This document shows positions 35,356-52,394 of a stretch of DNA of 64,000 nucleotides, in pieces (position 1 is the first letter of the stretch; the number at the start of each line of letters is the position of its first letter). Both the position numbers and the translations under genes were made by a program. The stretch lies in the IMG/VR virus record IMGVR_UViG_3300042901_002340, one strand, 5' to 3'. The notes beneath the pieces are model-generated. The model did not search any database and had not been told where the DNA came from. It was given only the letters and a program-made list of their open reading frames with translations. Source of the stretch: a virus (taxonomy: Duplodnaviria > Heunggongvirae > Uroviricota > Caudoviricetes).

Positions 35356-35385
35356 ATATATGAAATCCTTTCGAATAAAAAAAAT
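35351..35385 (-). promoter_or_regulatory. Conserved promoter element (ctcaaatatatg ... ttcgaataaaaaaaat)
   Basis: Lies upstream of 34972..35355. Confidence 0.45.
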
Positions 35386-35421
35386 CCCGAATGATATATT
35401 CGGGATTTTTTATTTTGGTGA

Positions 35422-37083
35422 TTATTTTAATCTCTCTCTAATTTCTGTTAGCGTGACCTGATTGTGGAATTTACCATCCTCATAGATGGTAAATAATAAA
35501 CCACTGTCTTCCTGCTCCTTAGTGCATTCGGTATTTACCTCCAACTGATCCTTACCATCGTACTTGATCTCGTAAGGTAAGGCATCTGGCCTGTTATTGA
35601 ATACCTGACAGAAACCCTTTAATGATTTTTTAGTACCATTATCTGTTATTGGGTCTTTGTAGATATTATATTCGGTCGTGATGTAATCAGTTTGACCGTC
35701 AGGATCAACACCATTAAATTCCTTAGTAGAGAACCAAGCTCCTTTAGCTGCATATCCAGCAGAGTCTCTTGTTAGCATGACATATGTGTAAGAACCAACC
35801 CCTACAACGACGTTAGTAGATGCAAATCCTTTGGCTTCTGACCTTGTGTAGATAGCAATTTGTCTTTCCAAGTTGATTGAATCACCGTAGATGGCTCCAA
35901 TGTGTGGGTCCAATCTTTTATATCCTTGTTCATTGATAGTTCCACCAAAGATATCCCAAAGTAATTCAATAACACCTTTACCTTCTGGAGTTCCAGTGTG
36001 TAATGTTGATTCGCTACCGCAAATAATATCGACTGGGTCTCCAGAATCAGGACGAATTACAAGTTTACCATCTCTTGCAAGGATTTCCTTTTTAAGTCTT
36101 GGTAGAATGTGCGTAATAACTTTCCATAAATCCATTGTATCAGAAACTGCAGAAAGAATGCCTTTAGGGAATTTTTTCAACCAATCTCGAAGATTAAGGT
36201 ATTCTGCAATTGCTAGGTAGTCCGGAGCATCAACCGATCCCTCGCAAGGGGAATCGAAAGAATAGTAGTTTAGAATCTCATGGTTTAATTTTCCAGATTT
36301 TAATTTTTTCTCGTAGAAGAAAATACCTGTACAAGTCACGCTGTGCTCTGAAGCATTAACGCTATAAACAGGAACCTCATTCTCATCAAAATCGTAGTAG
36401 TATCTTGATGCCGGGATAACATTTAATGTGTCGCTACCAGAATTACTCATGGCGTGTCCTAAACCGATTGCGATTGAGGTGAAAGGATTACCACCTCTAC
36501 TATGAAAATCGTGACACATGAAATCAGCTAACCAAAGATTCTCCGGATCTGTTTTGGTAACCCATTCCACAGCATTCTTTTTGAATCTGTGTGCAATGGT
36601 AGCAGCAGTAGGTAATTGCCAAGCCAATTTAGAAACCAATGTCTCTAAGTAAAGTCCAAGCCATGCATAACCATCAACAGTATTAATACCCGTCATGTGA
36701 GGGATATTTGGTTTGGTGAAGGTTCCTTCTGGGATAGCTTTGATTTTAACTGGAAGGTATCCAAGTTTATGAAGCTCTGTGAAATGCCCAGCATCATAGT
36801 CCATCATAAGATACTTAGCCATATCTCTTCCAAATTTCTCTGCCACCTCCACATGTTTATTGAAGAAAAGCTCCTGAAAGTTACTATGAATGTATCTCCA
36901 AACTAATTGTTGACCTGCTGACATGATGCCGTCTATCGATGGATGCATGTACTTGATGCTTCTTGGAATCCATGTCCAATATTCGGTTGCTGTGTTTTCA
37001 GCTAACATTGCCTTGTGCCCAACTTTATACCCGTCGGATTCGTAAAGGGGGTTGATTTTAAACGTTTCGTTTAGTTTTTCCAT
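35422..37083 (-). CDS. nadV: Nicotinamide phosphoribosyltransferase (NAMPT / NadV-like; could be a Namat-type enzyme)
   Basis: Recalled NAMPT blocks aligned by eye: DGYKVGHKAM (cf. DSYKVTHYKQ), KIKAIPEGT, CHDFHSRGG (cf. LHDFGYRG), LVIRPDSGDPVDII (cf. LIIRPDSGNPLDTV), GAIYGDSIN. Confidence 0.8.
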   Translation of the reverse strand: MEKLNETFKINPLYESDGYKVGHKAMLAENTATEYWTWIPRSIKYMHPSIDGIMSAGQQLVWRYIHSNFQELFFNKHVEVAEKFGRDMAKYLMMDYDAGHFTELHKLGYLPVKIKAIPEGTFTKPNIPHMTGINTVDGYAWLGLYLETLVSKLAWQLPTAATIAHRFKKNAVEWVTKTDPENLWLADFMCHDFHSRGGNPFTSIAIGLGHAMSNSGSDTLNVIPASRYYYDFDENEVPVYSVNASEHSVTCTGIFFYEKKLKSGKLNHEILNYYSFDSPCEGSVDAPDYLAIAEYLNLRDWLKKFPKGILSAVSDTMDLWKVITHILPRLKKEILARDGKLVIRPDSGDPVDIICGSESTLHTGTPEGKGVIELLWDIFGGTINEQGYKRLDPHIGAIYGDSINLERQIAIYTRSEAKGFASTNVVVGVGSYTYVMLTRDSAGYAAKGAWFSTKEFNGVDPDGQTDYITTEYNIYKDPITDNGTKKSLKGFCQVFNNRPDALPYEIKYDGKDQLEVNTECTKEQEDSGLLFTIYEDGKFHNQVTLTEIRERLK

Positions 37084-37088
37084 TTTTA

Positions 37089-37574
37089 TTAATTGTTTTC
37101 GTTTCCTATTATTTTTCTAATTTCCTCGTCAGTAAGAATAAATTTTGGATCTTCTCTATCTACGAATGTTGATTTATTTGTTTCAAACCACTTTGAGAAT
37201 TTTTTAGCATATATCTTAGTGTATGGATCTATAGAAAAAAGAAGTTCCGTGTGTATGAATGCGAAATTTCCATCCGTCGCGGGTAATCGGATTGCGCTAA
37301 CTTTCCCGTTTTTATTCAGTGAAAAAACTAGGGACAAATCTGAATTTGTATCTATTGAAGAGTACTTCCCAACCAGATCTTTATGTGCAAAGAAGTACAT
37401 GGAGCTATCGCCTCTCCAATTAAATTGGTACTCTCCGCTGGTAAGAAGTTCATAACTATACTTATATTTATGGAAATTCCTAAAATTAACCAATGTCGAC
37501 ATTAGCATCATAAGTAGAATGGTGATGCACACTGATAATATAACCGATGTGATTATTGTAATTGCTGTTGTCAT
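37089..37574 (-). CDS. Hypothetical membrane protein
   Basis: 161 aa with an N-terminal TM helix. Confidence 0.45.
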   Translation of the reverse strand: MTTAITIITSVILSVCITILLMMLMSTLVNFRNFHKYKYSYELLTSGEYQFNWRGDSSMYFFAHKDLVGKYSSIDTNSDLSLVFSLNKNGKVSAIRLPATDGNFAFIHTELLFSIDPYTKIYAKKFSKWFETNKSTFVDREDPKFILTDEEIRKIIGNENN

Positions 37575-37957
37575 TATAAAGTATTTAAAGATTTTTGTTT
37601 GGACTCTTCGAATGCGATTATAATTTTTTTTCTCCAGTATAGTGTATATGGGTCAAAGAAAGTAAAACTTGCCTCATGTATATAAGCGCTGATATTTCTT
37701 TTTCCAGTTAACAATTTTATTGATCCCTTTCCATCCCCAAAAAATATAATTTCGTTATCAGTAAAAGGATCTGTATTATCAGGTCTTCTGAAGTAGATGG
37801 TACTATCTGAGCTAAGATTTCTATCGCGAACATAGCTGCCATTCACTATAGCATCATATGTTGGTTTGTAGAATTGATAGTATTCTCTTAGTGTTAAGAA
37901 TGAGGATAACCATAGGATACCTATGATTATTACTAAAAGTAATATAATTGCTGTCAT
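37574..37957 (-). CDS. Hypothetical membrane protein
   Basis: 127 aa with an N-terminal TM helix. It shares the motif F..P.T..W.KK with 37089..37574. Confidence 0.45.
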   Translation of the reverse strand: MTAIILLLVIIIGILWLSSFLTLREYYQFYKPTYDAIVNGSYVRDRNLSSDSTIYFRRPDNTDPFTDNEIIFFGDGKGSIKLLTGKRNISAYIHEASFTFFDPYTLYWRKKIIIAFEESKQKSLNTL

Positions 37958-37959
37958 TA

Positions 37960-38451
37960 TTATTGGGTTTTATAGATTAATTCGTCTTTTTTGATGTATG
38001 GAATATGTATGTACTCATCCACTAAAGCTTTCTGTTTTTCTAAACATGATTCTAACATTTTAGATTTCTCTATTATAGCGGATTCTGGAACTTTTCTTTC
38101 TCTATTTTTATTTCTTTCCAAGCAAACTTTTAAAGGTGCTTCAACATAAACTAGTGTTATGTGATAACCTTTGTCCTTAAGCATTCCAATAATTCTCAAA
38201 GAGTAAGAGTTATTAACTCCACCAGAGTCCATGCACATAGAAATTCCTTTATCCGATAGTTCACACATTTGTCTTTCCGCTTCTTTAACACTCCATTGGT
38301 GAAGGGGTTCTGGATCCTTTGGGTCATAATCCTTATGTGATTGTTTGATAAGGTCAGCAGAAACTATAGAATAGTCTCCGGCATAGTCTCTATTGACTAT
38401 GGATGTTTTTCCTGATCCAGGTAAGCCGATAAAAAGTATTGCTTTTTTCAT
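37960..38451 (-). CDS. P-loop kinase (AAA_33 / polynucleotide-kinase or zeta-toxin-like fold)
   Basis: Walker A LFIGLPGSGKTSIV at the N-terminus. Size fits a small nucleotide or nucleoside kinase. Confidence 0.5.
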   Translation of the reverse strand: MKKAILFIGLPGSGKTSIVNRDYAGDYSIVSADLIKQSHKDYDPKDPEPLHQWSVKEAERQMCELSDKGISMCMDSGGVNNSYSLRIIGMLKDKGYHITLVYVEAPLKVCLERNKNRERKVPESAIIEKSKMLESCLEKQKALVDEYIHIPYIKKDELIYKTQ

Positions 38452-38466
38452 TCCCTTTAATTGTTA

Positions 38467-38500
38467 GGCAAATATAAAAAAAAATTCCGGATAAAAAAAT
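38467..38500 (-). promoter_or_regulatory. Conserved promoter element plus hairpin terminator
   Basis: ggcaaatataaa ... aattccggataaaaaaattttattcggaattttttt. The hairpin ends gene 38520..38852 and the promoter serves 37960..38451. Confidence 0.5.
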
Positions 38501-38519
38501 TTTATTCGGAATTTTTTAA

Positions 38520-38852
38520 CTAACAATCAATATATTTTATTTCGATGCCTTTCTTGACAGCAAATTCTATTTCCTCTGCGACACCTCTTGAATGATTCCA
38601 GCCTTCCATTTTGTAGACATGTAGCTCATCACTAACTTGAAGAAAGCTTAGACAGAAATTCTGCCAGAATGGCCAGTCTGTTGGCATTTCTTTAAATTGA
38701 GTAAGAGTGTGTCCGTATGTTATGGGTGAAAATGCTACGTTCCCTTTAGCACAAAGATCCGCTGCTATTTTTGATATTTTCTCGAAATTCTCCTCCCTTT
38801 TTTTGTCATCTGGATTGCTGTATGGCGATGCTAGGTAGATTATTTTTCCCAT
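38520..38852 (-). CDS. DUF1937-like protein (NDT-like clan)
   Basis: IYLASPYSNPD...FSPI...EGWNHSRGVAEEIEFAVKKGIEI matches the YLAsPYS / GW..S.GV..EI..A...G DUF1937 pattern as I recall it. Confidence 0.5.
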   Translation of the reverse strand: MGKIIYLASPYSNPDDKKREENFEKISKIAADLCAKGNVAFSPITYGHTLTQFKEMPTDWPFWQNFCLSFLQVSDELHVYKMEGWNHSRGVAEEIEFAVKKGIEIKYIDC

Positions 38853-39188
38853 TTAGAAATCTGTTATATTGTTTAATTCAGTCATACTGATGAAATTTGG
38901 TGGATCTAATTTATCTGATAGTTTTGCATATGTGGTATATGTTGGATATCCTGTATGCCCACACCCTCCTACAAAATCTTCCTCTTCAATAAGAATATAA
39001 AATGCCCATAGACCCAAATCTCTAACGTTGGTATGTTTATGCATAAAATCAAAGTCCTCGTAGTCCGATGGATGAAGTTTATATTCTATTGGCATACATA
39101 TATTATCTATACCATTACAACCTCCACAACAGCTGCTGATGTACCATCTGTTATCCCTTCTTACTGCGAGTCCTCTCTTTTCTAACAT
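38853..39188 (-). CDS. Hypothetical Cys-rich protein
   Basis: 111 aa. SSCCGGCNGIDNICMP...GGCGH. Confidence 0.4.
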   Translation of the reverse strand: MLEKRGLAVRRDNRWYISSCCGGCNGIDNICMPIEYKLHPSDYEDFDFMHKHTNVRDLGLWAFYILIEEEDFVGGCGHTGYPTYTTYAKLSDKLDPPNFISMTELNNITDF

Positions 39189-39454
39189 CGGTACAATGTC
39201 CCGTCTTCACCCCTTCCAGGAAATCCGTTATGCTCACCCGGGAATCCATGTGTCACCTCAAATCCATGTTGTTCTCCCAATTCCTCGAGGGTGGGATTCG
39301 GTTTCTTTGGCTCTTCTGCTTCGTGCTCAAAAAGATCATTTAGCTTTTTCTTAACAGTTTTCGTTTGATCGACTGTTAAATTGTCTCCCGTTGCAGATAG
39401 AAATCCATCTAACCACATTACAAATCCTTGTAGCTTATTCATCGTCCTCGTCAA
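39182..39454 (-). CDS. Hypothetical small protein
   Basis: 90-aa ORF. Confidence 0.4.
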   Translation of the reverse strand: MTRTMNKLQGFVMWLDGFLSATGDNLTVDQTKTVKKKLNDLFEHEAEEPKKPNPTLEELGEQHGFEVTHGFPGEHNGFPGRGEDGTLYRC

Positions 39455-39641
39455 TAAAGATTATACCTTCGCGGTCAATTAATATCTCGTCTGCAATCTC
39501 AGCAAGATACTCTGGTGCTTCGATGAGAGAGTCATCATCCTGCATTATCATTTCCCCAATTCCGTGTTTTTCGAAGTATTCTGTCAATTTTTGGATTGCA
39601 GCTTCTTTCTTTTCTGGTGTCCAGATCACTTTAATAATCAT
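39435..39641 (-). CDS. Hypothetical small acidic protein
   Basis: 68-aa ORF. Confidence 0.4.
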   Translation of the reverse strand: MIIKVIWTPEKKEAAIQKLTEYFEKHGIGEMIMQDDDSLIEAPEYLAEIADEILIDREGIIFIDEDDE

Positions 39642-39653
39642 AATTTATATCAT

Positions 39654-39887
39654 TTAGCATTTTACAATTATGTCTCGTTGTCTCTTTGGCGGTTTTGTAC
39701 CACCATCGTGGATAGCTTGCATTTCTGCTTGTACCACTGGATCCTCCGAATATGACGGATCTATATCGTGGTAGAAAACCAATTTTAAATGGTTTCTGAT
39801 TATCTCCACCTGCCTTGGGGTTAACTGTTCAGATTCTGATAACTCAAAGAAGCCTTGAATCCAAAAACAAAATTCCGTTGCTTTCAT
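39654..39887 (-). CDS. Hypothetical small protein
   Basis: 77-aa ORF. Confidence 0.4.
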   Translation of the reverse strand: MKATEFCFWIQGFFELSESEQLTPRQVEIIRNHLKLVFYHDIDPSYSEDPVVQAEMQAIHDGGTKPPKRQRDIIVKC

Positions 39888-40252
39888 TATTTTAAAAATT
39901 TAGGTTCATGATGTGTAATCTTTATATTTGGTTTGGTCCTGGTTTGTTCCGGCTGATAATCAGGTAGATACTCGCCAAACTCTCGGATCATGTTGAATTT
40001 AGCTATTGGAGCTATTTTTTGATCCAGAAAATCCTCCGAATCAACACCACAGGAAAGTATATTGAAGGCGGTTGCTGTGGAAATTGATTTGTTAACTTTG
40101 CTAACTTTTTCCCATCCACCCCATTGTGTTAGAGATCTTTGTGCATTATAGAACATTTCTCTCAGCTCCTGATTTGTTACACCTTCAGCTAATTGTTTTG
40201 CATAGGATCTTCTCATCCTATTTTTCTCTAGTCTTATACCAATCACCAGCAT
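39887..40252 (-). CDS. Hypothetical protein
   Basis: 121-aa ORF. Confidence 0.45.
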   Translation of the reverse strand: MLVIGIRLEKNRMRRSYAKQLAEGVTNQELREMFYNAQRSLTQWGGWEKVSKVNKSISTATAFNILSCGVDSEDFLDQKIAPIAKFNMIREFGEYLPDYQPEQTRTKPNIKITHHEPKFLK

Positions 40253-40580
40253 GCCAAACTATGAAGCCCATTATGCTATCCTCTTTCACATATTCCCCCT
40301 CAGGATCAACCAATATCCTATTCCCCTGCTGACTCATATAAACCTCGTATGTTCCTAGAGCATTGTGTCTAAGCTGAACTCTTTTTCTTTTGCTCAATTC
40401 GGTTAATATAAGTTTGGCTTTTGCTATATTAAAAAATCCTATGCTTTCTCCTGGTTCATCGCTTCCTGTTAGAAATTCCCATTTATAGAACTCTTCGGAT
40501 TTCTTTAGCTCCAATTCTAAGGTTGCTATTTCTTCTTCTGCTGTTGCTATTTCTTCCCTGATTTCTTTTGGATCCCTCAT
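40218..40580 (-). CDS. Hypothetical protein
   Basis: 120-aa ORF with an N-terminal coiled-coil EEIATAEEEIATLELELKK. Confidence 0.45.
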   Translation of the reverse strand: MRDPKEIREEIATAEEEIATLELELKKSEEFYKWEFLTGSDEPGESIGFFNIAKAKLILTELSKRKRVQLRHNALGTYEVYMSQQGNRILVDPEGEYVKEDSIMGFIVWHAGDWYKTREK

Positions 40581-40792
40581 TACTCTTTTTCTTTTATTAG
40601 TACATAAACCTCCTCAACCAATGCTTCCCTTGACCCCCATTTTAATGTCTCCTTTGATTTCAGGATTGAATTAATTATGTCCTGTTCCGATGGTGCAGTG
40701 TCTTGCATATCGACATGGGTTCCGTAGTGATCACTGAAATTATAAGCATTTACACTTATTTTATATCGCTTGACTAATCTATTCCCTTCCAT
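40580..40792 (-). CDS. Hypothetical small protein
   Basis: 70-aa ORF. Confidence 0.4.
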   Translation of the reverse strand: MEGNRLVKRYKISVNAYNFSDHYGTHVDMQDTAPSEQDIINSILKSKETLKWGSREALVEEVYVLIKEKE

Positions 40793-41354
40793 ATTCTCCA
40801 GGTTTTATTCTACCGGATGCAATATCTGCATCTATTAAATCGAAAGCACAATCCAAAAATATCATAAGTCCTTCTCGGAACGACCCTGGGTGGATAAGGA
40901 TACCTTTGATGATTTTATCGTTGACAACGAGACGATCTCCTCTCCCTCTCTCGACGGAGTATTCTGGGAGCTTGTATTTTCTGCGAAGAATTTCCATCGC
41001 TTCCCAGTAAACAGAACATTTCTTAACGAGTTCGTTATATTCTTCATTGTCGGAATAAACCATTTGACCCGTTTCGTTAACGATGTACCAACCCATCCCA
41101 TAGGCGTGTCCTCTGTCGCCAAACATATGGTGTGACTCGTGACTCGTAATGGTGCTAAACATACTTCCCTCATGCTGTGTAACAGTCTCTCCCCAGTGAT
41201 TTTCATATTGTTTCTTGATTTTTCCAGGAGCTTTTGGCGTAACAGATTCTAACGAATCTGCTATTGTCTTTCCGCTCACATTTCTAACTATTGGAAATTC
41301 GAATGCCATAAATGGCTCCGTTTCTGGATTTCCCTTTGGGTCTTCTGTCTTCAT
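40779..41354 (-). CDS. Hypothetical protein
   Basis: 191-aa ORF. The nested ORF 40862..41206 in another frame is rejected. Confidence 0.5.
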   Translation of the reverse strand: MKTEDPKGNPETEPFMAFEFPIVRNVSGKTIADSLESVTPKAPGKIKKQYENHWGETVTQHEGSMFSTITSHESHHMFGDRGHAYGMGWYIVNETGQMVYSDNEEYNELVKKCSVYWEAMEILRRKYKLPEYSVERGRGDRLVVNDKIIKGILIHPGSFREGLMIFLDCAFDLIDADIASGRIKPGEYGRE

Positions 41355-41356
41355 AA

Positions 41357-42139: not shown

Positions 42140-42141
42140 AA

Positions 42142-42471
42142 CTATTCTTTATCTATGTTATTAATTATATCACTAATTCCGTCACTCTCTGACATGCCTT
42201 CTAATTTCTTGGCTAATTCTACGAATGCTGTATATCCAATATCCTGCATCTCCATGATGAGATCAACAACTCTAACGTCGACGTTTAATTCCTCTGCACA
42301 TTTTATTGCAGTTTTCTCCTCGAGTTTAACCCCAGATTCAACAAGATCCATTGCCATGTCGAATCCCTTTTCTGTTATGAGTGTTCCTCCTTCCAGAAAA
42401 CCACCCTCTCTTAGTTTGTTACACCAGTAAACAAACAGGAGTGCCTGTTCTTTAAGCTCCTCGAAGTTCAT
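42142..42471 (-). CDS. Hypothetical small acidic protein
   Basis: 109-aa ORF. Confidence 0.45.
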   Translation of the reverse strand: MNFEELKEQALLFVYWCNKLREGGFLEGGTLITEKGFDMAMDLVESGVKLEEKTAIKCAEELNVDVRVVDLIMEMQDIGYTAFVELAKKLEGMSESDGISDIINNIDKE

Positions 42472-42931
42472 TTTTCACAAGTGTTAATGCTTGACCTAAT
42501 AAATTAAGACCTAACCAATATGACGGATCCTCAACTCCTTGTGCATCCTCGTCCATACCAATTCCCCACACATTATCAAGAGGTGAAGCTTCAACAAAAA
42601 ATGCATTCCCTGTTGATAGCATTTCTTCCTTTAAGCCTGGATTCTGTGAAAATTTGGCTAGATTTCCTTCATATACAATAGCTAAGCAATTCCTTTCCCA
42701 AATTGATTTGTCAAAGTTCTTAACCATCCTTCCGAATTTCTTTTGTTCCCTTGGATTTTTTTCCTGCATGATTAATTCTGCAGTTTCTTCATCGCCAAAT
42801 AACAATGCCTTCTGGTGCATCATGTATTGCTCGCATGAATTATATTCTATTTTACCAATGGTCATATTTGCTTTATGCCATTGCGAGTAAATTCCATTCC
42901 AGAAAAACACGTATTTATTTGTTGTTTTCAT
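42452..42931 (-). CDS. NADAR domain protein (YbiA-like, DUF1768; ADP-ribose / NAD-associated N-glycosidase family)
   Basis: FFW....S.W, EQ.MM..KA, KFSQNP.L...LL.TG...VEAS..D..WGIG and LG..L..VR match the NADAR family pattern as I recall it. Confidence 0.65.
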   Translation of the reverse strand: MKTTNKYVFFWNGIYSQWHKANMTIGKIEYNSCEQYMMHQKALLFGDEETAELIMQEKNPREQKKFGRMVKNFDKSIWERNCLAIVYEGNLAKFSQNPGLKEEMLSTGNAFFVEASPLDNVWGIGMDEDAQGVEDPSYWLGLNLLGQALTLVKNELRGA

Positions 42932-43088
42932 ATCTTAAATATAGTTTAGTATAATATTCATCGGGATTTGTTAAATCCTCGAATGTTGCTGTTTCTATTT
43001 TAACTTTTTTTGTGTCCAATTTTAAGGACTCGCACTTTTTGATAATCGAGCTCAATTTAGAATCCTTGATTTCTATTCTTGGCATATG

Positions 43089-43787
43089 TTATATTTTAAG
43101 TTCGTACCTTTTATAAATTCTCCCACCGCCCTCCTTTGGATAGTATGATACATTTAATTCAGTAAATAGATATTTAACCCCCGATTTATCATTAAAAATT
43201 TCGAGTTTCCTCGCTGCTTCAAGTTTATATGGGGTTAAGTCCTTTAGTTCAACCCCGTTTCTGAATATGGATTCCTGACTTTCAATGGAATAACAAAACG
43301 AGATGCTGATATGTGGTGAATTGAGTGCATAGAGATTAACAAAAAGTCTCAGATCAGTATGTAAACAGATTGGGAACTCGTTGGTAACAATTCTAGCAGA
43401 AACTTTGTCTAGAAAATTCTCTATCTCCTCCTTTGTTCCTCTCTTTTGTTTGGCTATGTTCAATTTTTTGAATTCCTCGGACACCACCTTTTTCTCTGTT
43501 TTAAATTCTGACAAATAGTTTTCGTCCGGATCTTCAAGATCACATTCTATTCCCCTCTTCTTGAGTCTATCTATAATGTAAGCAGCATTCTTTGGTGCTA
43601 GAATCATACTAAATAAATAGTTTATTGCACCATCAAATGAATAAAAAGTCATCCCTGGGGAGATGTGATAAGACTCCTCAAGTTTGGCTATCGAAATTTT
43701 CGAGTACCAATCTTTAAGATCAGTTTTATATGGGAATCTTATTGATCCTCCAGCATCTAATATTTCCTCTATGGATTCCTTTCTCAT
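43089..43787 (-). CDS. Hypothetical protein
   Basis: 232-aa ORF. Confidence 0.5.
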   Translation of the reverse strand: MRKESIEEILDAGGSIRFPYKTDLKDWYSKISIAKLEESYHISPGMTFYSFDGAINYLFSMILAPKNAAYIIDRLKKRGIECDLEDPDENYLSEFKTEKKVVSEEFKKLNIAKQKRGTKEEIENFLDKVSARIVTNEFPICLHTDLRLFVNLYALNSPHISISFCYSIESQESIFRNGVELKDLTPYKLEAARKLEIFNDKSGVKYLFTELNVSYYPKEGGGRIYKRYELKI

Positions 43788-43792
43788 GCCTA

Positions 43793-44041
43793 TTATGATG
43801 TAAATTCTAACCAGGTGCCTTCTCGCTGATCGGATTTCATTTCAACTTTTTTCCATCCAGCCTTGATGTACCTGCCTCTTATTATTTCAAGATGTAAATA
43901 ACTCATACCTTCTGGAACCTTAAGAGTTAAAGTTCCCCCTGACCTAAGTTTAGAATTTGATAGATGAAGATCTATCTTTTTTTCAAATCCATCGGCTTCC
44001 TTTTGGAGATTTTCGTCCAATAATTGTGGTGAAACTGCCAT
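43793..44041 (-). CDS. Hypothetical small protein
   Basis: 82-aa ORF. Confidence 0.4.
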   Translation of the reverse strand: MAVSPQLLDENLQKEADGFEKKIDLHLSNSKLRSGGTLTLKVPEGMSYLHLEIIRGRYIKAGWKKVEMKSDQREGTWLEFTS

Positions 44042-44042
44042 A

Positions 44043-45116
44043 TTATACGTATTTATGTGTTTGGTCGTTAATCATAGCAATTGTGCCGGTGGTCAATTGC
44101 TTCAACGTCTCTTTAAAAACTTGTATTGCAGCCGCTACGTCATCTTTATGCACCATCTCTACTGTAGTATGCATATACTTCAACGGACTAGCTACGATCA
44201 CTGTAGGGACGTTTTCAAGGAAGAATGAAACTGTGTCATTTCCATAAGATCCAACAGATAGTTGCAACGGAATTTCTTTTTTCTTAGCAACATCTCTAAC
44301 GATATTGATTAGATCCTTGTGGTTTTGAGACGAGTACTCGATAACCGGACCTGCACCTCCTTTAACATCACCAGATTTGGCTTTGTTCATCTTAGGAGAG
44401 TTTGTGTTATGGGTAACGTCGTGAACCAATGCGATGTCTGGTTTAATTGTTTGAGCAATCAATCTTGCTCCAAATAACCCAACTTCCTCCTGGACAGCAT
44501 TAACTATGTAAAGATCGAATGGTAACACTGTTCCTTCCTCTTTAAGTTCTCTTGCAACTTCAGCAATGATGTAACCACCGATCTTATTGTCTAGTGATCT
44601 ACCCACGTAATATTTGCCCATCTCGAAGAATGGCTGGTCAAACGTGATACAATTTCCAACCTCGACCCCAAGTTTTGCAACCTTCTTTGCTGTGTCAACT
44701 CCAAGATCAACCCAAAGTTCATGAACTTCCGGTCCCATCTCAACTCTTTTTTCTCTAACGTGAATAGCAGGCCATCCAAAAACTCCAGGTACTTTTTTAC
44801 CGTCATGTGTGTGAACAAAAACAGTCATTGATGGAGCAATCATATTGTCTGATCCACCGTTTGTTTTCACTCTAATCATTCCGTTTTCCTCTATCTGCGA
44901 AATTACAAATGCTATCTCGTCGCAGTGGGCTTCCAAAATTACTTTCTTGGTTCCTGTCCCTTTGATTAAACCATATGCTGTTCCGTATGCATCAACTTTC
45001 ATTTCACTAACGAATGGTTTAACATAATCGATCCATATTTTCTGTCCTTCAAATTCTCTTCCAACCGGTGAGAAAGCGTCTAAATACCCTTTTAAAAACT
45101 TTTTATTATCGCTCAT
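44043..45116 (-). CDS. M42 family metallo-aminopeptidase (FrvX / glutamyl aminopeptidase-like)
   Basis: ILEAHCDEIAFVIS matches the M42 AHmDEiG motif. Overall length and layout fit the M42/M20 clan. Confidence 0.65.
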   Translation of the reverse strand: MSDNKKFLKGYLDAFSPVGREFEGQKIWIDYVKPFVSEMKVDAYGTAYGLIKGTGTKKVILEAHCDEIAFVISQIEENGMIRVKTNGGSDNMIAPSMTVFVHTHDGKKVPGVFGWPAIHVREKRVEMGPEVHELWVDLGVDTAKKVAKLGVEVGNCITFDQPFFEMGKYYVGRSLDNKIGGYIIAEVARELKEEGTVLPFDLYIVNAVQEEVGLFGARLIAQTIKPDIALVHDVTHNTNSPKMNKAKSGDVKGGAGPVIEYSSQNHKDLINIVRDVAKKKEIPLQLSVGSYGNDTVSFFLENVPTVIVASPLKYMHTTVEMVHKDDVAAAIQVFKETLKQLTTGTIAMINDQTHKYV

Positions 45117-45140
45117 TTTTATTGATTTTCATTATTATAT

Positions 45141-45174
45141 TGCAAATATATGGCATTATTTCGAGATATTAAAA
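45141..45174 (-). promoter_or_regulatory. Conserved promoter element (tgcaaatatatg ... ttcgagatattaaaat)
   Basis: Lies 25 nt upstream of the start of 44043..45116. Confidence 0.5.
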
Positions 45175-45212
45175 TATTTTTTGATATATATGCATATACA
45201 AAAAATCAAAAT

Positions 45213-45362
45213 ATGAAAAAATTAATAACTGTAAGGATAGACGCAGCGACATATGATCAATACAGAAAGGTGTTGGAAGAAAATGGAATGGATATGAGCA
45301 AAAGAATACGTAATTTTATAGATTCAGAAATAAAAGATCTTGGTGATGGAAAAAATTGTTAA
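45213..45362 (+). CDS. Ribbon-helix-helix (CopG/Arc-like) small DNA-binding protein
   Basis: MKKLITVRIDAATYDQYRKVLEENGMDMSKRIRNFI has the beta-strand then two helices pattern. The ORF-track N-terminal extension is rejected. Confidence 0.45.
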   Translation: MKKLITVRIDAATYDQYRKVLEENGMDMSKRIRNFIDSEIKDLGDGKNC

Positions 45363-46122
45363 ATCATACATATACTCACTCATAGATCCGGTTACTGAGG
45401 AAATAAGATACATAGGAAAAACAGTAAATCCATCACAAAGATTATCTGCTCATATAAAAAGCGGATATAAAAAAGGTAGTCATAAGGAATGCTGGATATA
45501 TGGACTATTAGAGAAAAATCTAAAACCAAAAATGAACATAATTGAGGAATGTTTGGATGATAGCTGGATAGAAAGGGAAAAATATTATATAAGAACGTTA
45601 CCAAATCTAACTAACCATACGGAAGGCGGTGATTCACCTTCCGGTCATAAGATGTCGGAAGAGACTAGAAAAAAAATGTCGGAGAGCAGAAGAGGAGAAC
45701 AAAACTCATTCTTTGGTAAATCACATTCCAATGAATCCAGAAAATTGATCTCGAAATCTATCAAGGAAATTCCAAAGAATGAGGGCTACGGATTTACTGG
45801 TAAAAATCACAAGGAATCATCCAGAGAGATAATATCTAAAAGAGCAAAGGAAAGAGCAAATAGAGGTGAATTACCTAAGCTGCCAATTATGTCAGGTAAG
45901 GATAATCCTGCATCGAAGGAGAGAATTTTCATATCCCCGTCAGGTGAAATATTCATTGTTTATAATTTAAGAAAATTTTGTAAAGAAAACAGCTTATCTC
46001 ACAATATAATATTTAGAAATATAAACAATGGACCTATAGAAAAACCAACGGATAAAAAAACTCTCGATAGACAAAGAACCAAGAGTCTAAATACCATAGG
46101 ATGGGAAGTGATACAGAAATAG
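45346..46122 (+). CDS. GIY-YIG homing endonuclease with NUMOD3-like repeats
   Basis: KSYIYSLIDPVTEEIRYIGKT is the GIY-YIG motif. Repeated H.EETRKKMSESRRG / HSNESRKLISKS / HKESSREIISKRAKE are NUMOD3-like DNA-binding motifs. The track start is TTG at 45340, so I use the ATG at 45346. Confidence 0.75.
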   Translation: MEKIVKSYIYSLIDPVTEEIRYIGKTVNPSQRLSAHIKSGYKKGSHKECWIYGLLEKNLKPKMNIIEECLDDSWIEREKYYIRTLPNLTNHTEGGDSPSGHKMSEETRKKMSESRRGEQNSFFGKSHSNESRKLISKSIKEIPKNEGYGFTGKNHKESSREIISKRAKERANRGELPKLPIMSGKDNPASKERIFISPSGEIFIVYNLRKFCKENSLSHNIIFRNINNGPIEKPTDKKTLDRQRTKSLNTIGWEVIQK

Positions 46123-46704
46123 TTATTTTTTTAGATGTACTATTGTTACCTTACAATCTTTTAGCTCCTCCTTTATTAGGGATTTAACCGTTTTCTCATC
46201 ACCTCCGGCCAATCCACACCCGATAAGGGGGAGTCCGACGTGTCTACCTTTGAATTGGTGGTTTATTTTTCTCATACAGAGTCTAAGTGCATCATAATCA
46301 AGGGGCCTAGCAGTTCCGCCCTCATGATTTAATCCAAACCCATATTGGGTGTAGCTATTAACAACTGCAAGATCAAATTTGCCATTTTCTCCGGTGTATG
46401 TATTAACCTTCCAATCTATCTGACCAAGCTTGTTATAGTCACCCCTATGCTGTTGACCTTCCATTGGAAATTTGTCACACCCAAATGCCCCAGCCATTTG
46501 TGGTGCTATTCCAGCTCCCATGGTACAGAAACAGTTACATCCATGGGTGATCACTTGGAATTTTCCCTGTTGTGCCATGGTTATTAGATTGCCAACTACC
46601 TCCCGATATGCTGGGTGGATTGGCTGACTAATAAGGGATTCTGGCAAACATGACCTGTCACACTCGCCGTTGCAATACATACAACCTCCTATTAGTGTTC
46701 TCAT
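46123..46704 (-). CDS. Macro domain protein (ADP-ribose binding or hydrolysing) with an N-terminal Cys cluster
   Basis: QVITHGCNCFCTMGAGIAPQ matches the macro VNaaN..l.gGgGva / Macro_2 pattern. LPLIGCGLAGGD is the distal macro motif. N-terminus has CMYCNGECDRSC. Confidence 0.55.
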   Translation of the reverse strand: MRTLIGGCMYCNGECDRSCLPESLISQPIHPAYREVVGNLITMAQQGKFQVITHGCNCFCTMGAGIAPQMAGAFGCDKFPMEGQQHRGDYNKLGQIDWKVNTYTGENGKFDLAVVNSYTQYGFGLNHEGGTARPLDYDALRLCMRKINHQFKGRHVGLPLIGCGLAGGDEKTVKSLIKEELKDCKVTIVHLKK

Positions 46705-47009
46705 TATTTAAGGTCTTCCGATTTAGTTGTTCCATCTCTATTGATGTGAACCACAATGTTATCCATGGTTTCTCTTACCCCTTCCTCGTGTCCTTTTTTT
46801 CTAGAATTCGCACTTATTAATGCAACCCCAATTGACAATAGAACCCAACCCACTGCGTTTAGTGGAGCATTCATTTTGAACGAGAAGGGAGAGAATGTGA
46901 TTTCAGTATCGCCAATAAACAGGAATCCTGCTATTACAAAAAGACCCAATAGTATAATTTCTAACATACTTTTCATTTTATTTGATTTTATAAACGTATA
47001 ACGTGTCAA
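46704..47009 (-). CDS. Small membrane protein
   Basis: 101 aa with two TM helices. Confidence 0.4.
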   Translation of the reverse strand: MTRYTFIKSNKMKSMLEIILLGLFVIAGFLFIGDTEITFSPFSFKMNAPLNAVGWVLLSIGVALISANSRKKGHEEGVRETMDNIVVHINRDGTTKSEDLK

Positions 47010-47196
47010 TTTTTTTACCGTCCGTTGTTAATTTGATAGCTGGTTCAATTTTTGTTTTAGATTCTATAAATTCAGAATTACCCCAAATTGTATTACCTAA
47101 AAAAACACCTAAAGCCCCTGCGACAAAAAATACAAAGATGATTATGGTTACGACAAATTTAAAAATTTCGCCGAAAACTTCTTCAGAATTAAACAT
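46978..47196 (-). CDS. Small membrane protein
   Basis: 72 aa with one TM helix. Confidence 0.4.
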   Translation of the reverse strand: MFNSEEVFGEIFKFVVTIIIFVFFVAGALGVFLGNTIWGNSEFIESKTKIEPAIKLTTDGKKIDTLYVYKIK

Positions 47197-47197
47197 A

Positions 47198-48103
47198 TTA
47201 GATAACTTTTAATTGTTTAAGTTTGTGCATCTCATTATCGTTTCTTAATGAGAATTCAGGATCGGACATATCAACATAACTGTTGGTTGTGTAGATACCA
47301 TCGAAGTGTTCATTTAGTGGCTTTAAACCAGCTGAAAAGATTCCATGGGTTACAACAAGGAAAATCTTACCTGTTGCATTTTTTTCTCTGAGTGCTTTAG
47401 CAATCTCGATAAATGTGCGTCCTCCGTCGCAAATATCATCTAAGATAAAGAAGTCTTTATCTAGATCCTCAGGTTTTAAAGGAACATCAGTGTGTGTAAT
47501 CTTGCCAGTCCCAATGTCTCTGTGTTTTGAAGCTATAACTATGTCCTGCTTATATCCAATGGACTCGGCAACATCGTAAACTTTCTTAAGAGCTCCAGCA
47601 TCCGGAGATATTAATCTCATTTTGGAATAATCAGTGCTTCCAGAATTGAAATAGTCACGCAATACAAATGTTAGTAAACCCTGACCATATTGAGTTACCT
47701 TTTTGAATTTTTTGATACATGCCTCAGTCACATCCGAATGCGGGTCAAGTATTGTTACTCTTTTGAATTTCTGTGCATTGATAATAGGAGCAAGAACCTC
47801 TTTGATGTAATTAACACTTCCTTCCTCGAATTTTCTGTCCGATCTCGCACCTAATAGGTATGATATCTCAAGTGAAGTTGCTTTAACTCCAAGCTCTTTA
47901 AGAGCTTTATTTGCACAAATAACCAATTCAAGATCCAAGAATGAAGTTATTCTGGATTTTATTAAAACTGGTTCCATTTTCTCAAACATATCATGTTTGA
48001 GAACTTCACCCTCCAATATGGTGATGGCTTGCTGGCCATCCGGAAATTTGGAGACCTTGAATTTGATACCGTAGCTTAACGGTTCGGAAAGATTTATTAC
48101 CAT
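47198..48103 (-). CDS. Ribose-phosphate pyrophosphokinase (PRPP synthetase)-like protein; could be an ADPR-pyrophosphate synthetase (Adps) type
   Basis: RVTILDPHSDVTEAC matches the PRPP-synthetase DLHA..IQGFF region. FFILDDICDGGRTF matches the PRPP-binding loop VDDMIDTGGT. 301 aa. Confidence 0.65.
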   Translation of the reverse strand: MVINLSEPLSYGIKFKVSKFPDGQQAITILEGEVLKHDMFEKMEPVLIKSRITSFLDLELVICANKALKELGVKATSLEISYLLGARSDRKFEEGSVNYIKEVLAPIINAQKFKRVTILDPHSDVTEACIKKFKKVTQYGQGLLTFVLRDYFNSGSTDYSKMRLISPDAGALKKVYDVAESIGYKQDIVIASKHRDIGTGKITHTDVPLKPEDLDKDFFILDDICDGGRTFIEIAKALREKNATGKIFLVVTHGIFSAGLKPLNEHFDGIYTTNSYVDMSDPEFSLRNDNEMHKLKQLKVI

Positions 48104-48115
48104 TATTTTTATTTT

Positions 48116-48862: not shown

Positions 48863-48878
48863 ATCATTAAATTATATG

Positions 48879-48913
48879 CAAATATAAAAAAAAGATTCGA
48901 AATAAAAAAATTA
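48879..48913 (-). promoter_or_regulatory. Conserved promoter element plus a perfect hairpin terminator (gattcgaaataa-aaaaa-ttatttcgaatc, T6)
   Basis: Lies upstream of 48116..48862 and downstream of 48911..49267. Confidence 0.55.
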
Positions 48914-51282: not shown

Positions 51283-51284
51283 AG

Positions 51285-52392: not shown

Positions 52393-52394
52393 TA

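What the first reader, a model, noticed from the sequence alone, without database searches (positions are those of the whole stretch)
35422..48103. Phage NAD+ salvage set: NAMPT-like plus PRPP-synthetase-like (candidate NARP1-type counter-defence), with a possible NadR-type kinase at 26608..27192
The window carries a full-length NAMPT homolog (35422..37083) and a PRPP-synthetase homolog (47198..48103). In phages this pair is known either as NadV plus PRPP supply, or as Namat plus Adps of the NAD+ reconstitution pathway 1, which rebuilds NAD+ from ADP-ribose and nicotinamide after NAD-depleting immune effectors fire (Thoeris, DSR, SIR2 or TIR effectors). A NadR-type P-loop kinase (26608..27192), possibly a nicotinamide riboside kinase, adds a third salvage step. 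The two core genes are not adjacent here but lie about 10 kb apart, flanking other ADP-ribose-related genes. That arrangement differs from the compact two-gene operon of NARP1 as I recall it.
Basis: partly seen in the sequence, partly recalled or inferred. Interest (0 to 1): 0.7.

Follow-up and report, generated by a model that had tools for sequence, protein, structure and literature searches.

The report
Split NAD+ rebuilding genes, giant phage
A roughly 430 kb uncultured phage carries the two enzymes that known phages use to rebuild NAD+ from ADP-ribose and nicotinamide after bacterial immunity destroys it, so this is a new member of a known counter-defence pathway whose two genes lie 10 kb apart instead of side by side.

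Summary
Intact minus-strand ORFs lie at 35422-37083 (553 aa, NAMPT family) and 47198-48103 (301 aa, PRPP-synthetase family). They are 10,114 bp and 24 ORFs apart.

The pair reads as Adps plus Namat (NARP1), not Prs plus NadV.
- **Prs-like protein:** it keeps every residue used by the solved ICP1 Adps, including the DDICDG PP loop and the catalytic Lys. It scores below all NCBIfam Prs cut-offs, as validated-family Adps do.
- **NAMPT-like protein:** it nests inside the clade bounded by validated Namats. It carries the Namat motif as GSYTYVMLTRD, against GGGLLQQLDRD in KVP40 NadV. Position 7 is Met rather than aromatic.

A Poa1p-type macrodomain (46123-46704), three genes downstream of Adps, matches macrodomains embedded in compact Adps-Macro-Namat operons, which suggests NARP1-AP.

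Comparative evidence supports coupling of the two genes. In 69 of 70 informative viral loci, Adps lies within 10 kb of Namat, with gaps of 0-9.2 kb. One close relative has lost both genes through two separate deletions.

Terminator-like hairpins suggest two adjacent transcription units rather than one operon.

The "NadR-type kinase" (26608-27192) is only an AAA_28 P-loop protein with a generic kinase fold. It has no NMNAT or PnuC partner.

Verdict: a new member of a known kind. No activity was tested.

The parts
47198..48103 (-). Adps-like gene: ADP-ribose pyrophosphokinase candidate with a PRPP-synthetase fold, 301 aa
   Evidence: It conserves the ICP1 Adps residues: F20, R87, F92, H122, D168, K193, D222-D223-I224-C225-D226-G227 and F231 (residues from PMC13586617). 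K193 equals SPbetaL1 K162. It is below all NCBIfam Prs cut-offs. Against ICP1 Adps it scores 122 bits, against Bas61 147 bits, against E. coli Prs 54 bits.
35422..37083 (-). Namat-like gene: nicotinamide ADP-ribose transferase candidate with a NAMPT fold, 553 aa
   Evidence: The best solved relative is SPbetaL1 Namat 9w5x (325 bits), against Xcc Nampt 124 and human NAMPT 85. The catalytic core is invariant: D17, Y19, F193, R196, D218, H247, R344, D346, R439, D440. The SCH motif is G430-S-Y-T-Y-V-M-L-T-R-D440. It nests among validated Namats in the NJ tree.
46123..46704 (-). Macrodomain protein, candidate Adpp (ADPR-1''-phosphate phosphatase of NARP1-AP), third gene downstream of Adps
   Evidence: It hits phrog_335 'phosphatase' at E 4e-41. 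It is 50-60% identical to macrodomains lying between Adps and Namat in compact viral operons, and 34-35% identical to the middle gene of the Vibrio phage JSF10 operon. The family profile hits BT1257 (1.8e-15), OARD1 (5e-10) and yeast Poa1p (5e-6). The Pfam Macro hit itself is sub-threshold.
42452..42931 (-). NADAR (YbiA-type) protein between the two core genes. It is an associated gene, and its role in the pathway is not shown.
   Evidence: It hits PF08719 at E 5.5e-49 and TIGR02464 at 141.8 bits, above the cut-off of 73.7. Homologues lie between or beside Adps and Namat in 8 non-close viral loci, including the contiguous Adps-Macro-NADAR-Namat locus L089.
48116..48862 (-). Conserved 248-aa protein of unknown function. 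It is the first gene after the upstream terminator and ends 13 nt before Adps.
   Evidence: It has 591 homologues and no Pfam family. The model is confident (pLDDT 91.5) but has no significant fold match. It lies upstream of Adps in L156 and L157 too. It is deleted together with Adps in L012.
48888..48928 (-). Terminator-like hairpin (18 pairs plus a T run) upstream of the 248-aa gene. It marks the start of the Adps-containing unit.
   Evidence: It is conserved in relatives L010 (5507-5548) and L011 (6738-6779).
38479..38517 (-). Internal terminator-like hairpin (17 of 18 pairs plus a T run) between DUF1937 and the AAA_33 kinase gene. It separates the Adps unit from the Namat unit.
   Evidence: It is conserved in L010 (15863-15902) and L011 (14053-14089).
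35379..35411 (.). Bidirectional terminator-like hairpin starting 11 nt after the Namat stop codon
   Evidence: It is conserved after Namat in L010 (18204-18236) and L011 (16818-16848).
45340..46122 (+). GIY-YIG/NUMOD3 homing endonuclease on the opposite strand. It is a recent insertion that lengthens the gap.
   Evidence: It hits PF01541 and PF07460. It is absent at this place in relatives L010 and L011.
37960..38451 (-). AAA_33 / zeta-toxin-like P-loop kinase, the first gene of the Namat-containing unit. Its role is unknown and may be RNA repair.
   Evidence: It hits PF13671 at E 6e-14 and phrog_505 polynucleotide kinase. A 46% identical homologue lies 2 kb upstream of Namat in Leptolyngbya phage Lbo-JY46.
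38520..38852 (-). DUF1937, a nucleoside 2-deoxyribosyltransferase-like protein and the last gene of the Adps unit. Its role is unknown.
   Evidence: It hits PF09152 at E 1.4e-14 and phrog_355. It lies just upstream of Namat in 6 non-close loci.
26608..27192 (+). It is not shown to belong to the pathway.
   Evidence: It hits PF13521 at E 1.2e-13. It has no PDB sequence match, and the profile reaches NadR 6gye only at E 0.069. Foldseek ranks thymidylate kinases and the NadR kinase domain equally: 6gyf E 6e-6, 8x7f TM 0.73. It has no NMNAT or PnuC neighbours.

Best explanation
The window carries a NARP1-type NAD+ reconstitution pathway in a dispersed form.

Proposed mechanism:
- The 301-aa PRPS-like protein is an Adps. 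It transfers the beta,gamma-pyrophosphate of ATP to the 1'' hydroxyl of ADP-ribose, giving ADPR-PP.
- The 553-aa NAMPT-like protein is a Namat. It replaces that pyrophosphate with nicotinamide and so gives NAD+ directly.
- Together they let the phage restore NAD+ after SIR2, TIR or SEFIR type effectors have split it into ADPR and nicotinamide.
- The macrodomain protein three genes downstream of Adps most likely acts as Adpp. It would turn ADPR-1''-phosphate, the product of RES-type NADases, into ADPR and so extend the pathway to NARP1-AP.

Gene layout: the genes sit in two adjacent, co-directional, terminator-bounded units. The first runs from the 248-aa gene through Adps, Macro and NADAR to DUF1937. 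The second holds the AAA_33 kinase, two small ORFs and Namat.

Shown here: homology, conserved active-site and substrate-contact residues, clade membership, linkage in relatives, and co-loss in one relative.

Inferred: the activities, the preference for ADPR-PP over PRPP, the role of the macrodomain, and the counter-defence phenotype.
For: Adps:
- All residues that bind ADPR and ATP or catalyse the reaction in the ICP1 Adps structures (PMC13586617) are conserved. E. coli Prs differs at V101, M222, I223, T225 and L229.
- The PP loop DDICDGGRTF is the commonest form among 71 Namat-linked homologues.
- Scores on Prs models are 84.6 bits against a cut-off of 113 (TIGR01251) and 62 against 297 (NF002320). 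Validated-family Adps behave much the same: both are far below the NF002320 cut-off, and on TIGR01251 FADO scores 96.5 while Bas61, at 118.8, just passes.
- With midpoint rooting, E. coli Prs falls outside. The window protein falls between the FADO/SPbetaL1-type clade and the Bas61/ICP1-type clade.

Namat:
- Against SPbetaL1 Namat it scores 316-325 bits, against KVP40 NadV 134 bits.
- It is nested within the clade bracketed by Bas61, ICP1 and FADO.
- The SCH motif keeps Ser2, Tyr3, Thr4 and Tyr5. All 79 closest viral homologues have GS plus an aromatic residue at position 3, and 10 of them have Met at position 7.

Linkage:
- In 69 of 70 informative viral loci an Adps homologue lies within 10 kb of Namat on the same strand, with gaps of 0-9,242 bp.
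- Two relatives keep the same split layout.
- Relative L012 lacks both genes through two independent deletions (window 46525-49248 and 34247-38190). It keeps the 9 kb in between at about 92% nucleotide identity.

Macro.

No NMNAT, Nudix, PnuC or RyR domain was found in any window ORF scanned.
Against: - No activity was measured.
- Position 7 of the Namat clamp is Met (M436), not Tyr or Phe, and positions 6 and 8 are Val and Leu. This departs from the published consensus, and Leu at position 8 is what KVP40 NadV has.
- Namat enzymes also make NMN from PRPP in vitro (PMC12774641), so sequence alone cannot fix the substrate preference.
- PDB 9ke8 is 59% identical to SPbetaL1 Namat yet lacks the clamp aromatics. 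Clade similarity is therefore not proof.
- The operational NARP1 criterion, Namat within 10 genes of Adps, is not met: 24 genes intervene.
- A conserved terminator-like hairpin lies between the two genes.
- My Adps tree has only one true Prs as outgroup, and its deep branches are short.
- The macrodomain family (phrog_335) is found in 2,720 phage records, and in some of them, for example Bas61, it lies far from NARP1.
- Only 64 kb of about 430 kb was examined, so an NMNAT elsewhere in the genome is not excluded.
Confidence: 0.75

Rival explanations
1. Conventional salvage. The 301-aa protein is a PRPP synthetase that supplies PRPP. The 553-aa protein is a NadV/Nampt that makes NMN, which host NadD or NadR then adenylates to NAD+.
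For: Both proteins belong to these superfamilies. Clamp position 7 is not aromatic, and position 8 is Leu as in KVP40 NadV. Namat enzymes keep PRPP-dependent NMN synthesis in vitro (PMC12774641).
Against: The Prs-like protein fails every curated Prs model. It carries the Adps-type PP loop and the adenine-contact residues F20, R87 and F92. The NAMPT-like protein is far from KVP40 NadV (27% identity, 134 bits) and sits inside the Namat clade. No NMNAT was found in the window. In Osterman et al., 94% of NARP2-type Nampt phages encode an Nmnat, and Adps did not use ribose-5-phosphate (bioRxiv 10.1101/2024.02.11.579819).
Confidence: 0.1
2. Same chemistry, different purpose. The genes recycle ADP-ribose derivatives that the phage itself produces through NAD-dependent RNA repair or ADP-ribosylation. 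On this view the macrodomain is a Poa1p-like clean-up enzyme of RNA repair, and the set is general metabolic support rather than a counter-defence.
For: RNA-repair-type genes are nearby. They include Thg1-like 50428-51282, the AAA_33 polynucleotide-kinase-like genes 37960-38451 and 51285-52169. Thg1 is also near NARP1 in FADO and in 9 viral loci. Poa1p is the tRNA-splicing ADPR-1''-phosphatase (bioRxiv 10.64898/2026.01.28.702374).
Against: No KptA/Tpt1 2'-phosphotransferase or ADP-ribosyltransferase domain was found in the ORFs scanned. In tested phages, NARP1 products such as ADPR-PP appeared only when a NADase defence was active. The two purposes do not exclude each other.
Confidence: 0.1
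3. The two genes are no longer a working pair. Separation by 24 genes and a terminator would reflect decay of the pathway, with one or both genes kept for another role or drifting.
For: The layout fails the 10-gene criterion. A homing endonuclease and unrelated genes (M42 peptidase) sit between them. One relative has lost both genes.
Against: Both ORFs are full length with all catalytic residues intact. They are 83-88% identical to orthologues in two relatives that keep the same layout. Loss in L012 hit both genes at once, which is what coupling predicts. Gaps of several kb between Adps and Namat are common among 79 viral loci.
Confidence: 0.05

Closest known systems
NARP1 (Adps + Namat) of phages Bas63, SPbetaL1, FADO and ICP1 (Osterman et al., bioRxiv 10.1101/2024.02.11.579819; PMC12774641; PMC13586617)
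   Same: The same two enzyme families are present. The Adps PP loop, catalytic Lys and ADPR-contact residues are conserved. The Namat catalytic core and most of the selectivity-clamp motif are conserved. Both genes are on the same strand with Adps upstream of Namat.
   Different: Here 24 genes and 10.1 kb separate the two genes, with a terminator-like hairpin between them, instead of an adjacent two-gene operon. Clamp positions 6-8 are V-M-L instead of Q-(Y/F)-(N/V). The Namat is 553 aa, with insertions. Identity to validated enzymes is only 31-39% (Adps) and 33-40% (Namat). The genome is about 430 kb.
NARP1-AP (Adps + Adpp macrodomain phosphatase + Namat) of Vibrio phage Gary (bioRxiv 10.64898/2026.01.28.702374)
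   Same: A Poa1p-related macrodomain gene lies close downstream of Adps. It is homologous to macrodomains sitting between Adps and Namat in compact operons (JSF10, L124, L137, L089).
   Different: The macrodomain is the third gene after Adps, not the first or second, and Namat is 9 kb further on. I could not compare it directly with the Gary protein because I had no sequence for it. The same macrodomain family also occurs far from NARP1 in other phages.
NARP2 (NadV/Nampt + Nmnat) of Vibrio phage KVP40, and the 'NAD-salvage islands' of Flavobacterium jumbophages (PMC13573597)
   Same: A NAMPT-superfamily enzyme sits in a large phage, within a roughly 10 kb cluster of NAD-related genes.
   Different: There is no NMNAT-Nudix gene in the window. 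The NAMPT homologue has the GS-aromatic Namat motif rather than GGGLLQ. A PRPS-like Adps is present.
NARP3 (PnuC-like transporter + bifunctional NadR-like enzyme) of phage Bas30 (PMC13464706)
   Same: The 194-aa protein shares the AAA_28 family and fold class with the NadR ribosylnicotinamide kinase domain.
   Different: There is no NMNAT domain and no PnuC-like neighbour. The protein is stand-alone and on the opposite strand. Similarity to NadR is no better than to thymidylate kinases.
RyDEP-NARP1 coupling in mycobacteriophage DyoEdafos (bioRxiv 10.64898/2026.05.28.727677)
   Same: Both follow the idea of an accessory enzyme next to NARP1 that converts another ADPR derivative into linear ADPR.
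   Different: No RyR-domain protein was detected here. The accessory candidates are a macrodomain and a NADAR.

Membership tests
NARP1: Adps | PRPS-like protein with the Adps-type PP loop (DDICD...), the catalytic beta-hairpin Lys (ICP1 K185 / SPbetaL1 K162) and ADPR adenine contacts (F18, R87, F92) | tested here: met
   The window protein has D222-D223-I224-C225-D226-G227, K193, F20, R87, F92, H122, D168 and F231. E. coli Prs has MIDT in the loop and V101.
NARP1: Adps | Falls in the phage Adps clade, separate from cellular Prs | tested here: met
   It is below all 11 NCBIfam Prs cut-offs. In the midpoint-rooted NJ tree E. coli Prs falls outside, and the window protein lies between the FADO-type and Bas61/ICP1-type Adps. 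Caveat: the tree has only one true Prs and short deep branches.
NARP1: Namat | Nampt-like catalytic core intact (SPbetaL1 D13, Y15, F189, R192, D215, catalytic His, R306, D308, R399, D400) | tested here: met
   The window equivalents D17, Y19, F193, R196, D218, H247, R344, D346, R439 and D440 are all conserved.
NARP1: Namat | [quoted passage not shown] | tested here: inconclusive
   The motif is GSYTYVMLTRD. Position 3 is Tyr (met). Position 7 is Met (not aromatic). Met at position 7 occurs in 10 of 79 mostly Adps-linked homologues. KVP40 NadV has GGGLLQQLDRD. Single clamp mutations cost only 1.3-1.7-fold activity (PMC12774641).
NARP1: Namat | SCL loop with Arg, Lys or Tyr at the third position and a stacking residue | tested here: inconclusive
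   The window has PRSIKY, as FADO has PRSNKY. KVP40 NadV also has K-F at the aligned positions, although its loop is 8 residues shorter. The feature is therefore consistent but does not discriminate.
NARP1: pathway | Namat homologue within 10 genes of Adps (operational criterion of Osterman et al.) | tested here: not met
   24 ORFs and 10,114 bp lie between the two genes. They are on the same strand, in adjacent terminator-bounded units.
NARP1: pathway | ADPR + ATP gives ADPR-PP; ADPR-PP + nicotinamide gives NAD+; relief of NAD-depleting defences | not testable with these tools
   This needs biochemistry and phage challenge assays.
NARP1-AP | Poa1p-like macrodomain protein homologous to those inside NARP1 operons | tested here: met
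   It is 50-60% identical to macrodomains lying between Adps and Namat. It shares phrog_335 with the JSF10 operon gene. The profile hits Poa1p at E 5e-6. No direct comparison with Vibrio phage Gary Adpp was possible.
NARP1-AP | Macrodomain gene within two genes of the NARP1 genes (detection rule of the aRES paper) | tested here: not met
   The macrodomain is the third gene downstream of Adps. Two small ORFs, 46978-47196 and 46704-47009, intervene.
NARP2 | KVP40-type Nampt plus an Nmnat (NMNAT-Nudix) gene | tested here: not met
   Identity to KVP40 NadV is 27%, and the motif differs. No cytidylyltransferase or Nudix domain was found in any ORF scanned in the 64 kb window. The rest of the 430 kb genome was not examined.
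NARP3 | Bifunctional NadR-like enzyme (NMNAT + ribosylnicotinamide kinase) next to a PnuC-like transporter | tested here: not met
   The protein is 194 aa with only an AAA_28 domain. Its neighbours have no Pfam hits. Similarity to NadR is not significant by sequence (E 0.069) and not specific by fold.
Canonical ribose-phosphate pyrophosphokinase (Prs) | Reaches the curated score of an NCBIfam Prs model | tested here: not met
   The best scores are 84.6 bits against a cut-off of 113 (TIGR01251) and 62.2 against 297 (NF002320).

The most novel reading that the evidence does not exclude
The dispersed locus could be an extended 'ADPR-recycling island'. In this reading further enzymes feed NARP1, as Adpp and RyDEP do.

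The main candidate is the YbiA-type NADAR. It is embedded between or beside Adps, Macro and Namat in several divergent phage lineages:
- L089: contiguous Adps-Macro-NADAR-Namat.
- L079: the same order with short gaps.
- L132: Adps-NADAR-Macro.

The NADAR would release free ADP-ribose from N-glycosidically linked ADPR conjugates. These could be ADP-ribosylated bases or ADPR-derived immune signals.

The orphan-fold 248-aa protein at the head of the Adps unit, and the NDT-like proteins, could be further members.

I found no report of this in the papers searched. The nearest is a 2022 note that NADAR genes neighbour phage NadV/NadM genes (PMC9503650).
Probability: 0.2. Interest if true: 0.65.

Novelty: new member of a known kind. 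Interest (0 to 1): 0.35.

Why it matters
NARP1 is a recently described way for phages to defeat NAD-depleting immunity.

- **Reach of the pathway:** this case shows it in a very large (about 430 kb) uncultured phage.
- **Detection rules:** surveys that demand Adps and Namat within 10 genes, and a macrodomain within 2 genes, would miss loci like this one. Among 79 environmental loci the gap between the two genes ranges from 0 to 9 kb. Prevalence estimates from adjacency rules are therefore probably low.
- **Coupling without adjacency:** the double deletion in a close relative is natural-variation evidence that the two separated genes are kept or lost together.
- **Leads for experiment:** the recurrent NADAR, NDT-like and 248-aa neighbours are concrete candidates for further accessory enzymes.
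- **A natural clamp variant:** the Met at clamp position 7 is a natural variant for testing what sets the ADPR-PP preference.

Tried and rejected
- **Near-identity search:** megablast of 13.5 kb against deposited phages found nothing.
- **PHROG scores:** phrog_619 does not separate Adps from Prs. E. coli Prs scores 193 bits and the window protein 214 bits, so I dropped it as evidence.
- **Promoter scan:** the sigma-70 scan gave fewer sites than shuffled sequence and was not used.
- **Single-operon idea:** I first thought the whole block from the 248-aa gene to Namat was one terminator-free unit. I rejected this after finding a conserved 17-of-18-pair hairpin at 38479-38517. My first scan missed it because of one mismatch.
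- **SCL loop:** it looked Namat-like, but KVP40 NadV has the same K-aromatic pair, so I treat it as non-discriminating.
- **Relatives of Adps:** The search for related loci with the single Adps protein found only two close relatives. The Namat alignment query was needed.
- **Vibrio phage Gary Adpp:** I could not obtain its sequence because the paper text gives no accession. I used JSF10 and operon-embedded macrodomains as proxies.
- **P-loop protein:** it had no PDB sequence match.
- **RyR domain (RyDEP):** not found in the intervening ORFs.
- **Unidentified PDB entry:** 9ke8 could not be identified.

Full report
**Observation**

- The 553-aa product of 35422-37083 (-) matches PF04095 (E 8.7e-24) and phrog_448 (E 2.9e-136).
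- The 301-aa product of 47198-48103 (-) matches PF00156. It matches PF14572 below threshold and TIGR01251 at E 5.7e-24.
- The 194-aa product of 26608-27192 (+) matches AAA_28.

The two core genes lie on the same strand, 10,114 bp and 24 ORFs apart. Between them are a macrodomain gene at 46123-46704 and a NADAR gene at 42452-42931.

The window belongs to a 430,120-bp metagenomic contig. IMG/VR holds a 434.5-kb relative. No deposited phage is close at the DNA level. The best cultured relative for both proteins is Leptolyngbya phage Lbo-JY46 (53% and 46% identity), where two genes separate them.

**Is the PRPS-like protein an Adps or a Prs?**

The structures of ICP1 Adps (PMC13586617) name three groups of residues:
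- those that hold ADPR: F18 from the neighbouring subunit, R87, F92, H121, D161, D212, D213, I214;
- those that hold ATP: the PP loop C215-S220 and F221;
- the residue that catalyses transfer: K185.

In an alignment with ICP1, Bas61, JSF10, FADO, Lbo-JY46 and E. coli Prs, the window protein has F20, R87, F92, H122, D168, K193, D222, D223, I224, C225, D226, G227 and F231. E. coli Prs differs at V101, M222, I223, T225 and L229. K193 is also the equivalent of SPbetaL1 K162. The loop DDICDGGRTF is the commonest form among 71 Namat-linked homologues.

Against curated Prs models the protein scores 84.6 bits (cut-off 113) and 62 bits (cut-off 297). Adps from the validated families behave much the same: both are far below the 297 cut-off. 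On TIGR01251 FADO scores 96.5, while Bas61, at 118.8, just passes the cut-off of 113.

By BLASTP the protein scores 122 bits with biochemically validated ICP1 Adps and 147 bits with Bas61. It scores 64 bits with SPbetaL1 Adps and 54 bits with E. coli Prs. The validated enzymes are no closer to one another: SPbetaL1 against ICP1 gives 96 bits.

A neighbour-joining tree rooted at its midpoint puts E. coli Prs outside. The window protein sits in a 52-member clade next to Bas61, ICP1 and JSF10, with the FADO-type clade on the other side. That tree has one Prs only and short deep branches, so it is supporting evidence and not decisive.

**Is the NAMPT-like protein a Namat or a Nampt?**

The best solved relative is SPbetaL1 Namat (9w5x/9w5w, 325 bits). 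Xanthomonas Nampt scores 124 bits and human NAMPT about 85 (entry codes tied to PMC12774641). The catalytic core is intact.

- The window and its two relatives have GSYTYVMLTRD.
- SPbetaL1, FADO and Lbo-JY46 have GSFTYQYNTRD.
- Bas61 has GSYTYQFNTRD.
- KVP40 NadV has GGGLLQQLDRD.

The window therefore keeps Ser2, Tyr3, Thr4 and Tyr5 but has Met at position 7. Among the 79 closest viral homologues, all have GS plus an aromatic residue at position 3. Ten have Met at position 7, and these are Adps-linked like nearly all of the set. Single clamp mutations cost only 1.3-1.7-fold activity in vitro.

In a tree rooted on KVP40 NadV, the window protein is nested within the clade bracketed by Bas61, ICP1 and FADO.

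Two cautions apply. The SCL loop does not discriminate, because KVP40 has the same K-aromatic pair. PDB 9ke8 is 59% identical to SPbetaL1 Namat but lacks the clamp aromatics, so overall similarity is not proof of substrate preference.

**Linkage**

Of the 79 viral loci found with a Namat/Nampt alignment, 70 have enough flank to judge. Of those, 69 carry an Adps homologue within 10 kb on the same strand. The distance from the end of Adps to the start of Namat runs from 0 to 9,242 bp. The window, at 10,114 bp, is the extreme of a continuum rather than an oddity.

Relatives L010 (434.5-kb UViG) and L011 keep the same order. They have gaps of about 9.2 and 6.5 kb and no homing endonuclease. More distant phages, L156 and L157 (Adps 51-54% identical), also have the 248-aa gene, Adps, Macro and NADAR in that order, with no Namat within 6 kb.

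The most telling case is L012, an 80-kb UViG. It is collinear with the window at 84-92% nucleotide identity. It lacks window 46525-49248, which holds the 248-aa gene, Adps, two small ORFs and the start of the macrodomain gene. Separately, it lacks window 34247-38190, which holds Namat and its flanks. It keeps the 9 kb in between. Loss of both genes through two independent deletions is what functional coupling predicts. The caveat is that this is a single metagenomic contig.

**Transcription units**

Strong terminator-like hairpins lie just upstream of the 248-aa gene (48888-48928) and 11 nt after the Namat stop codon (35379-35411). I first took the block between them for one unit. A further hairpin at 38479-38517 (17 of 18 pairs plus a T run) lies between DUF1937 and the AAA_33 kinase gene. 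It is conserved in L010 and L011.

The better reading is two adjacent co-directional units. Adps heads the first, after the 248-aa gene. Namat ends the second. Whether the middle hairpin terminates fully cannot be told from sequence.

**The macrodomain**

NARP1-AP adds a Poa1p-like macrodomain phosphatase, Adpp, that converts ADPR-1''-phosphate to ADPR. The evidence on the window protein is as follows.
- It is in phrog_335, as is the middle gene of the Adps-x-Namat operon of Vibrio phage JSF10, to which it is 34-35% identical.
- It is 50-60% identical to macrodomains lying between Adps and Namat in 20 viral loci. These include compact three-gene operons such as L124 and L137.
- A profile of the family hits BT1257, OARD1 and Poa1p (E 5e-6).

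Against a firm call: the family is very widespread (2,720 phage records), and in Bas61 it lies far from NARP1. Here it is the third gene after Adps, not the first or second. I could not compare it with the validated Gary protein.

**The 'NadR-type kinase'**

The protein has only an AAA_28 domain and no PDB match by sequence. A 33-member profile reaches Lactococcus NadR at E 0.069 over the kinase domain.

A confident model (pLDDT 85) matches thymidylate kinases (E 5e-6) and NadR kinase domains equally well. The NadR matches are 6gyf at E 6e-6 and rmsd 3.2, and 8x7f at TM 0.73. Some JGI homologues are auto-named nicotinamide riboside kinase.

The protein has no NMNAT domain, and its neighbours show no PnuC or other Pfam hit. 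The gene lies on the opposite strand. Its constant distance from Namat in related phages is shared backbone synteny. It therefore fails the NARP3 definition. Its role stays open.

**Other partners**

No NMNAT, Nudix, PnuC, RyR or KptA domain was found in any ORF scanned across the window. Only 64 kb of about 430 kb was available.

**Comparison and novelty**

NARP1, NARP1-AP, the Namat clamp and the Adps structure are all published. This locus is a new, divergent member. What differs is the layout (24 intervening genes, two units), the V-M-L clamp variant and the genome size.

NADAR neighbours of phage NadV genes were noted in 2022, and phage NADARs are known as anti-DarT factors. I found no report of a NADAR as a working part of NARP1. 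Its embedding in compact operons of three divergent lineages (L089, L079, L132) is the most interesting lead here, but so far it rests only on association.

Noticed in passing
[not shown]
   Followed up: yes
locus L012 (IMGVR_UViG_3300006056_000031) against window 34247-38190 and 46525-49248: A close relative lacks both Namat and Adps through two separate deletions, yet keeps the 9 kb between them at about 92% nucleotide identity. The Namat deletion junction shows a 15-bp overlap. The Thg1 region (window about 50440-52403) is also replaced.
   Followed up: yes
window 42452-42931 (-); loci L089, L079, L132, L078, L081, L096: The YbiA-type NADAR gene recurs between or beside Adps, Macro and Namat in several divergent phage lineages. 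L089 has a contiguous four-gene Adps-Macro-NADAR-Namat set.
   Followed up: partly
window 30430-30942 (-) and 38520-38852 (-): There are two nucleoside 2-deoxyribosyltransferase-like proteins (PF15891 and DUF1937). Homologues of the first lie within 10 kb of Namat in 38 of 77 non-close viral loci. This could be shared backbone synteny or a functional link.
   Followed up: partly
window 50428-51282 (-): A Thg1-like tRNA-His guanylyltransferase is 42% identical to the FADO protein, which also sits about 2 kb from FADO NARP1. Homologues lie near Namat in 9 viral loci. With the AAA_33 kinases at 37960-38451 and 51285-52169, this hints at an RNA-repair context.
   Followed up: partly
window 45340-46122 (+) and 1350-2126 (-): There are two GIY-YIG endonuclease genes. 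The first carries NUMOD3, lies on the opposite strand directly after the macrodomain gene, and is absent from relatives L010 and L011. It is therefore a recent mobile insertion.
   Followed up: partly
window 6299-9775 (-) and 9878-11326 (-): Two large proteins (1158 and 482 aa) carry collagen triple-helix repeats. They are probably fibre or surface proteins of the phage.
   Followed up: no
window 29461-30366 (-), 31034-32947 (-), 33197-33943 (-), 44043-45116 (-): A short Gp23-like protein (301 aa), a 637-aa SPFH/Band 7 protein, an M28 peptidase and an M42 aminopeptidase are interleaved with the NAD-related genes. The Gp23-like, Nuc_deoxyri_tr2, Band 7 and Namat order is conserved in L151-L153.
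   Followed up: no
PDB 9ke8/9keo (seen): A solved 'nicotinamide phosphoribosyltransferase' of unknown origin is 59% identical to SPbetaL1 Namat. It is not in the phage collection. Its clamp motif is GAQTYQRNTRD, without aromatics at positions 3 and 7. A Namat-clade relative can therefore lack the clamp.
   Followed up: partly
phrog_12872: In this 547-position PHROG profile, the first about 220 positions match Adps and the last about 160 match Namat. This suggests that fused Adps-Namat proteins exist in some phages.
   Followed up: no
window 60812-61384 (-) and 2133-2837 (-): A ferritin-like protein and a non-specific DNA/RNA endonuclease (PF01223) are encoded elsewhere in the window.
   Followed up: no
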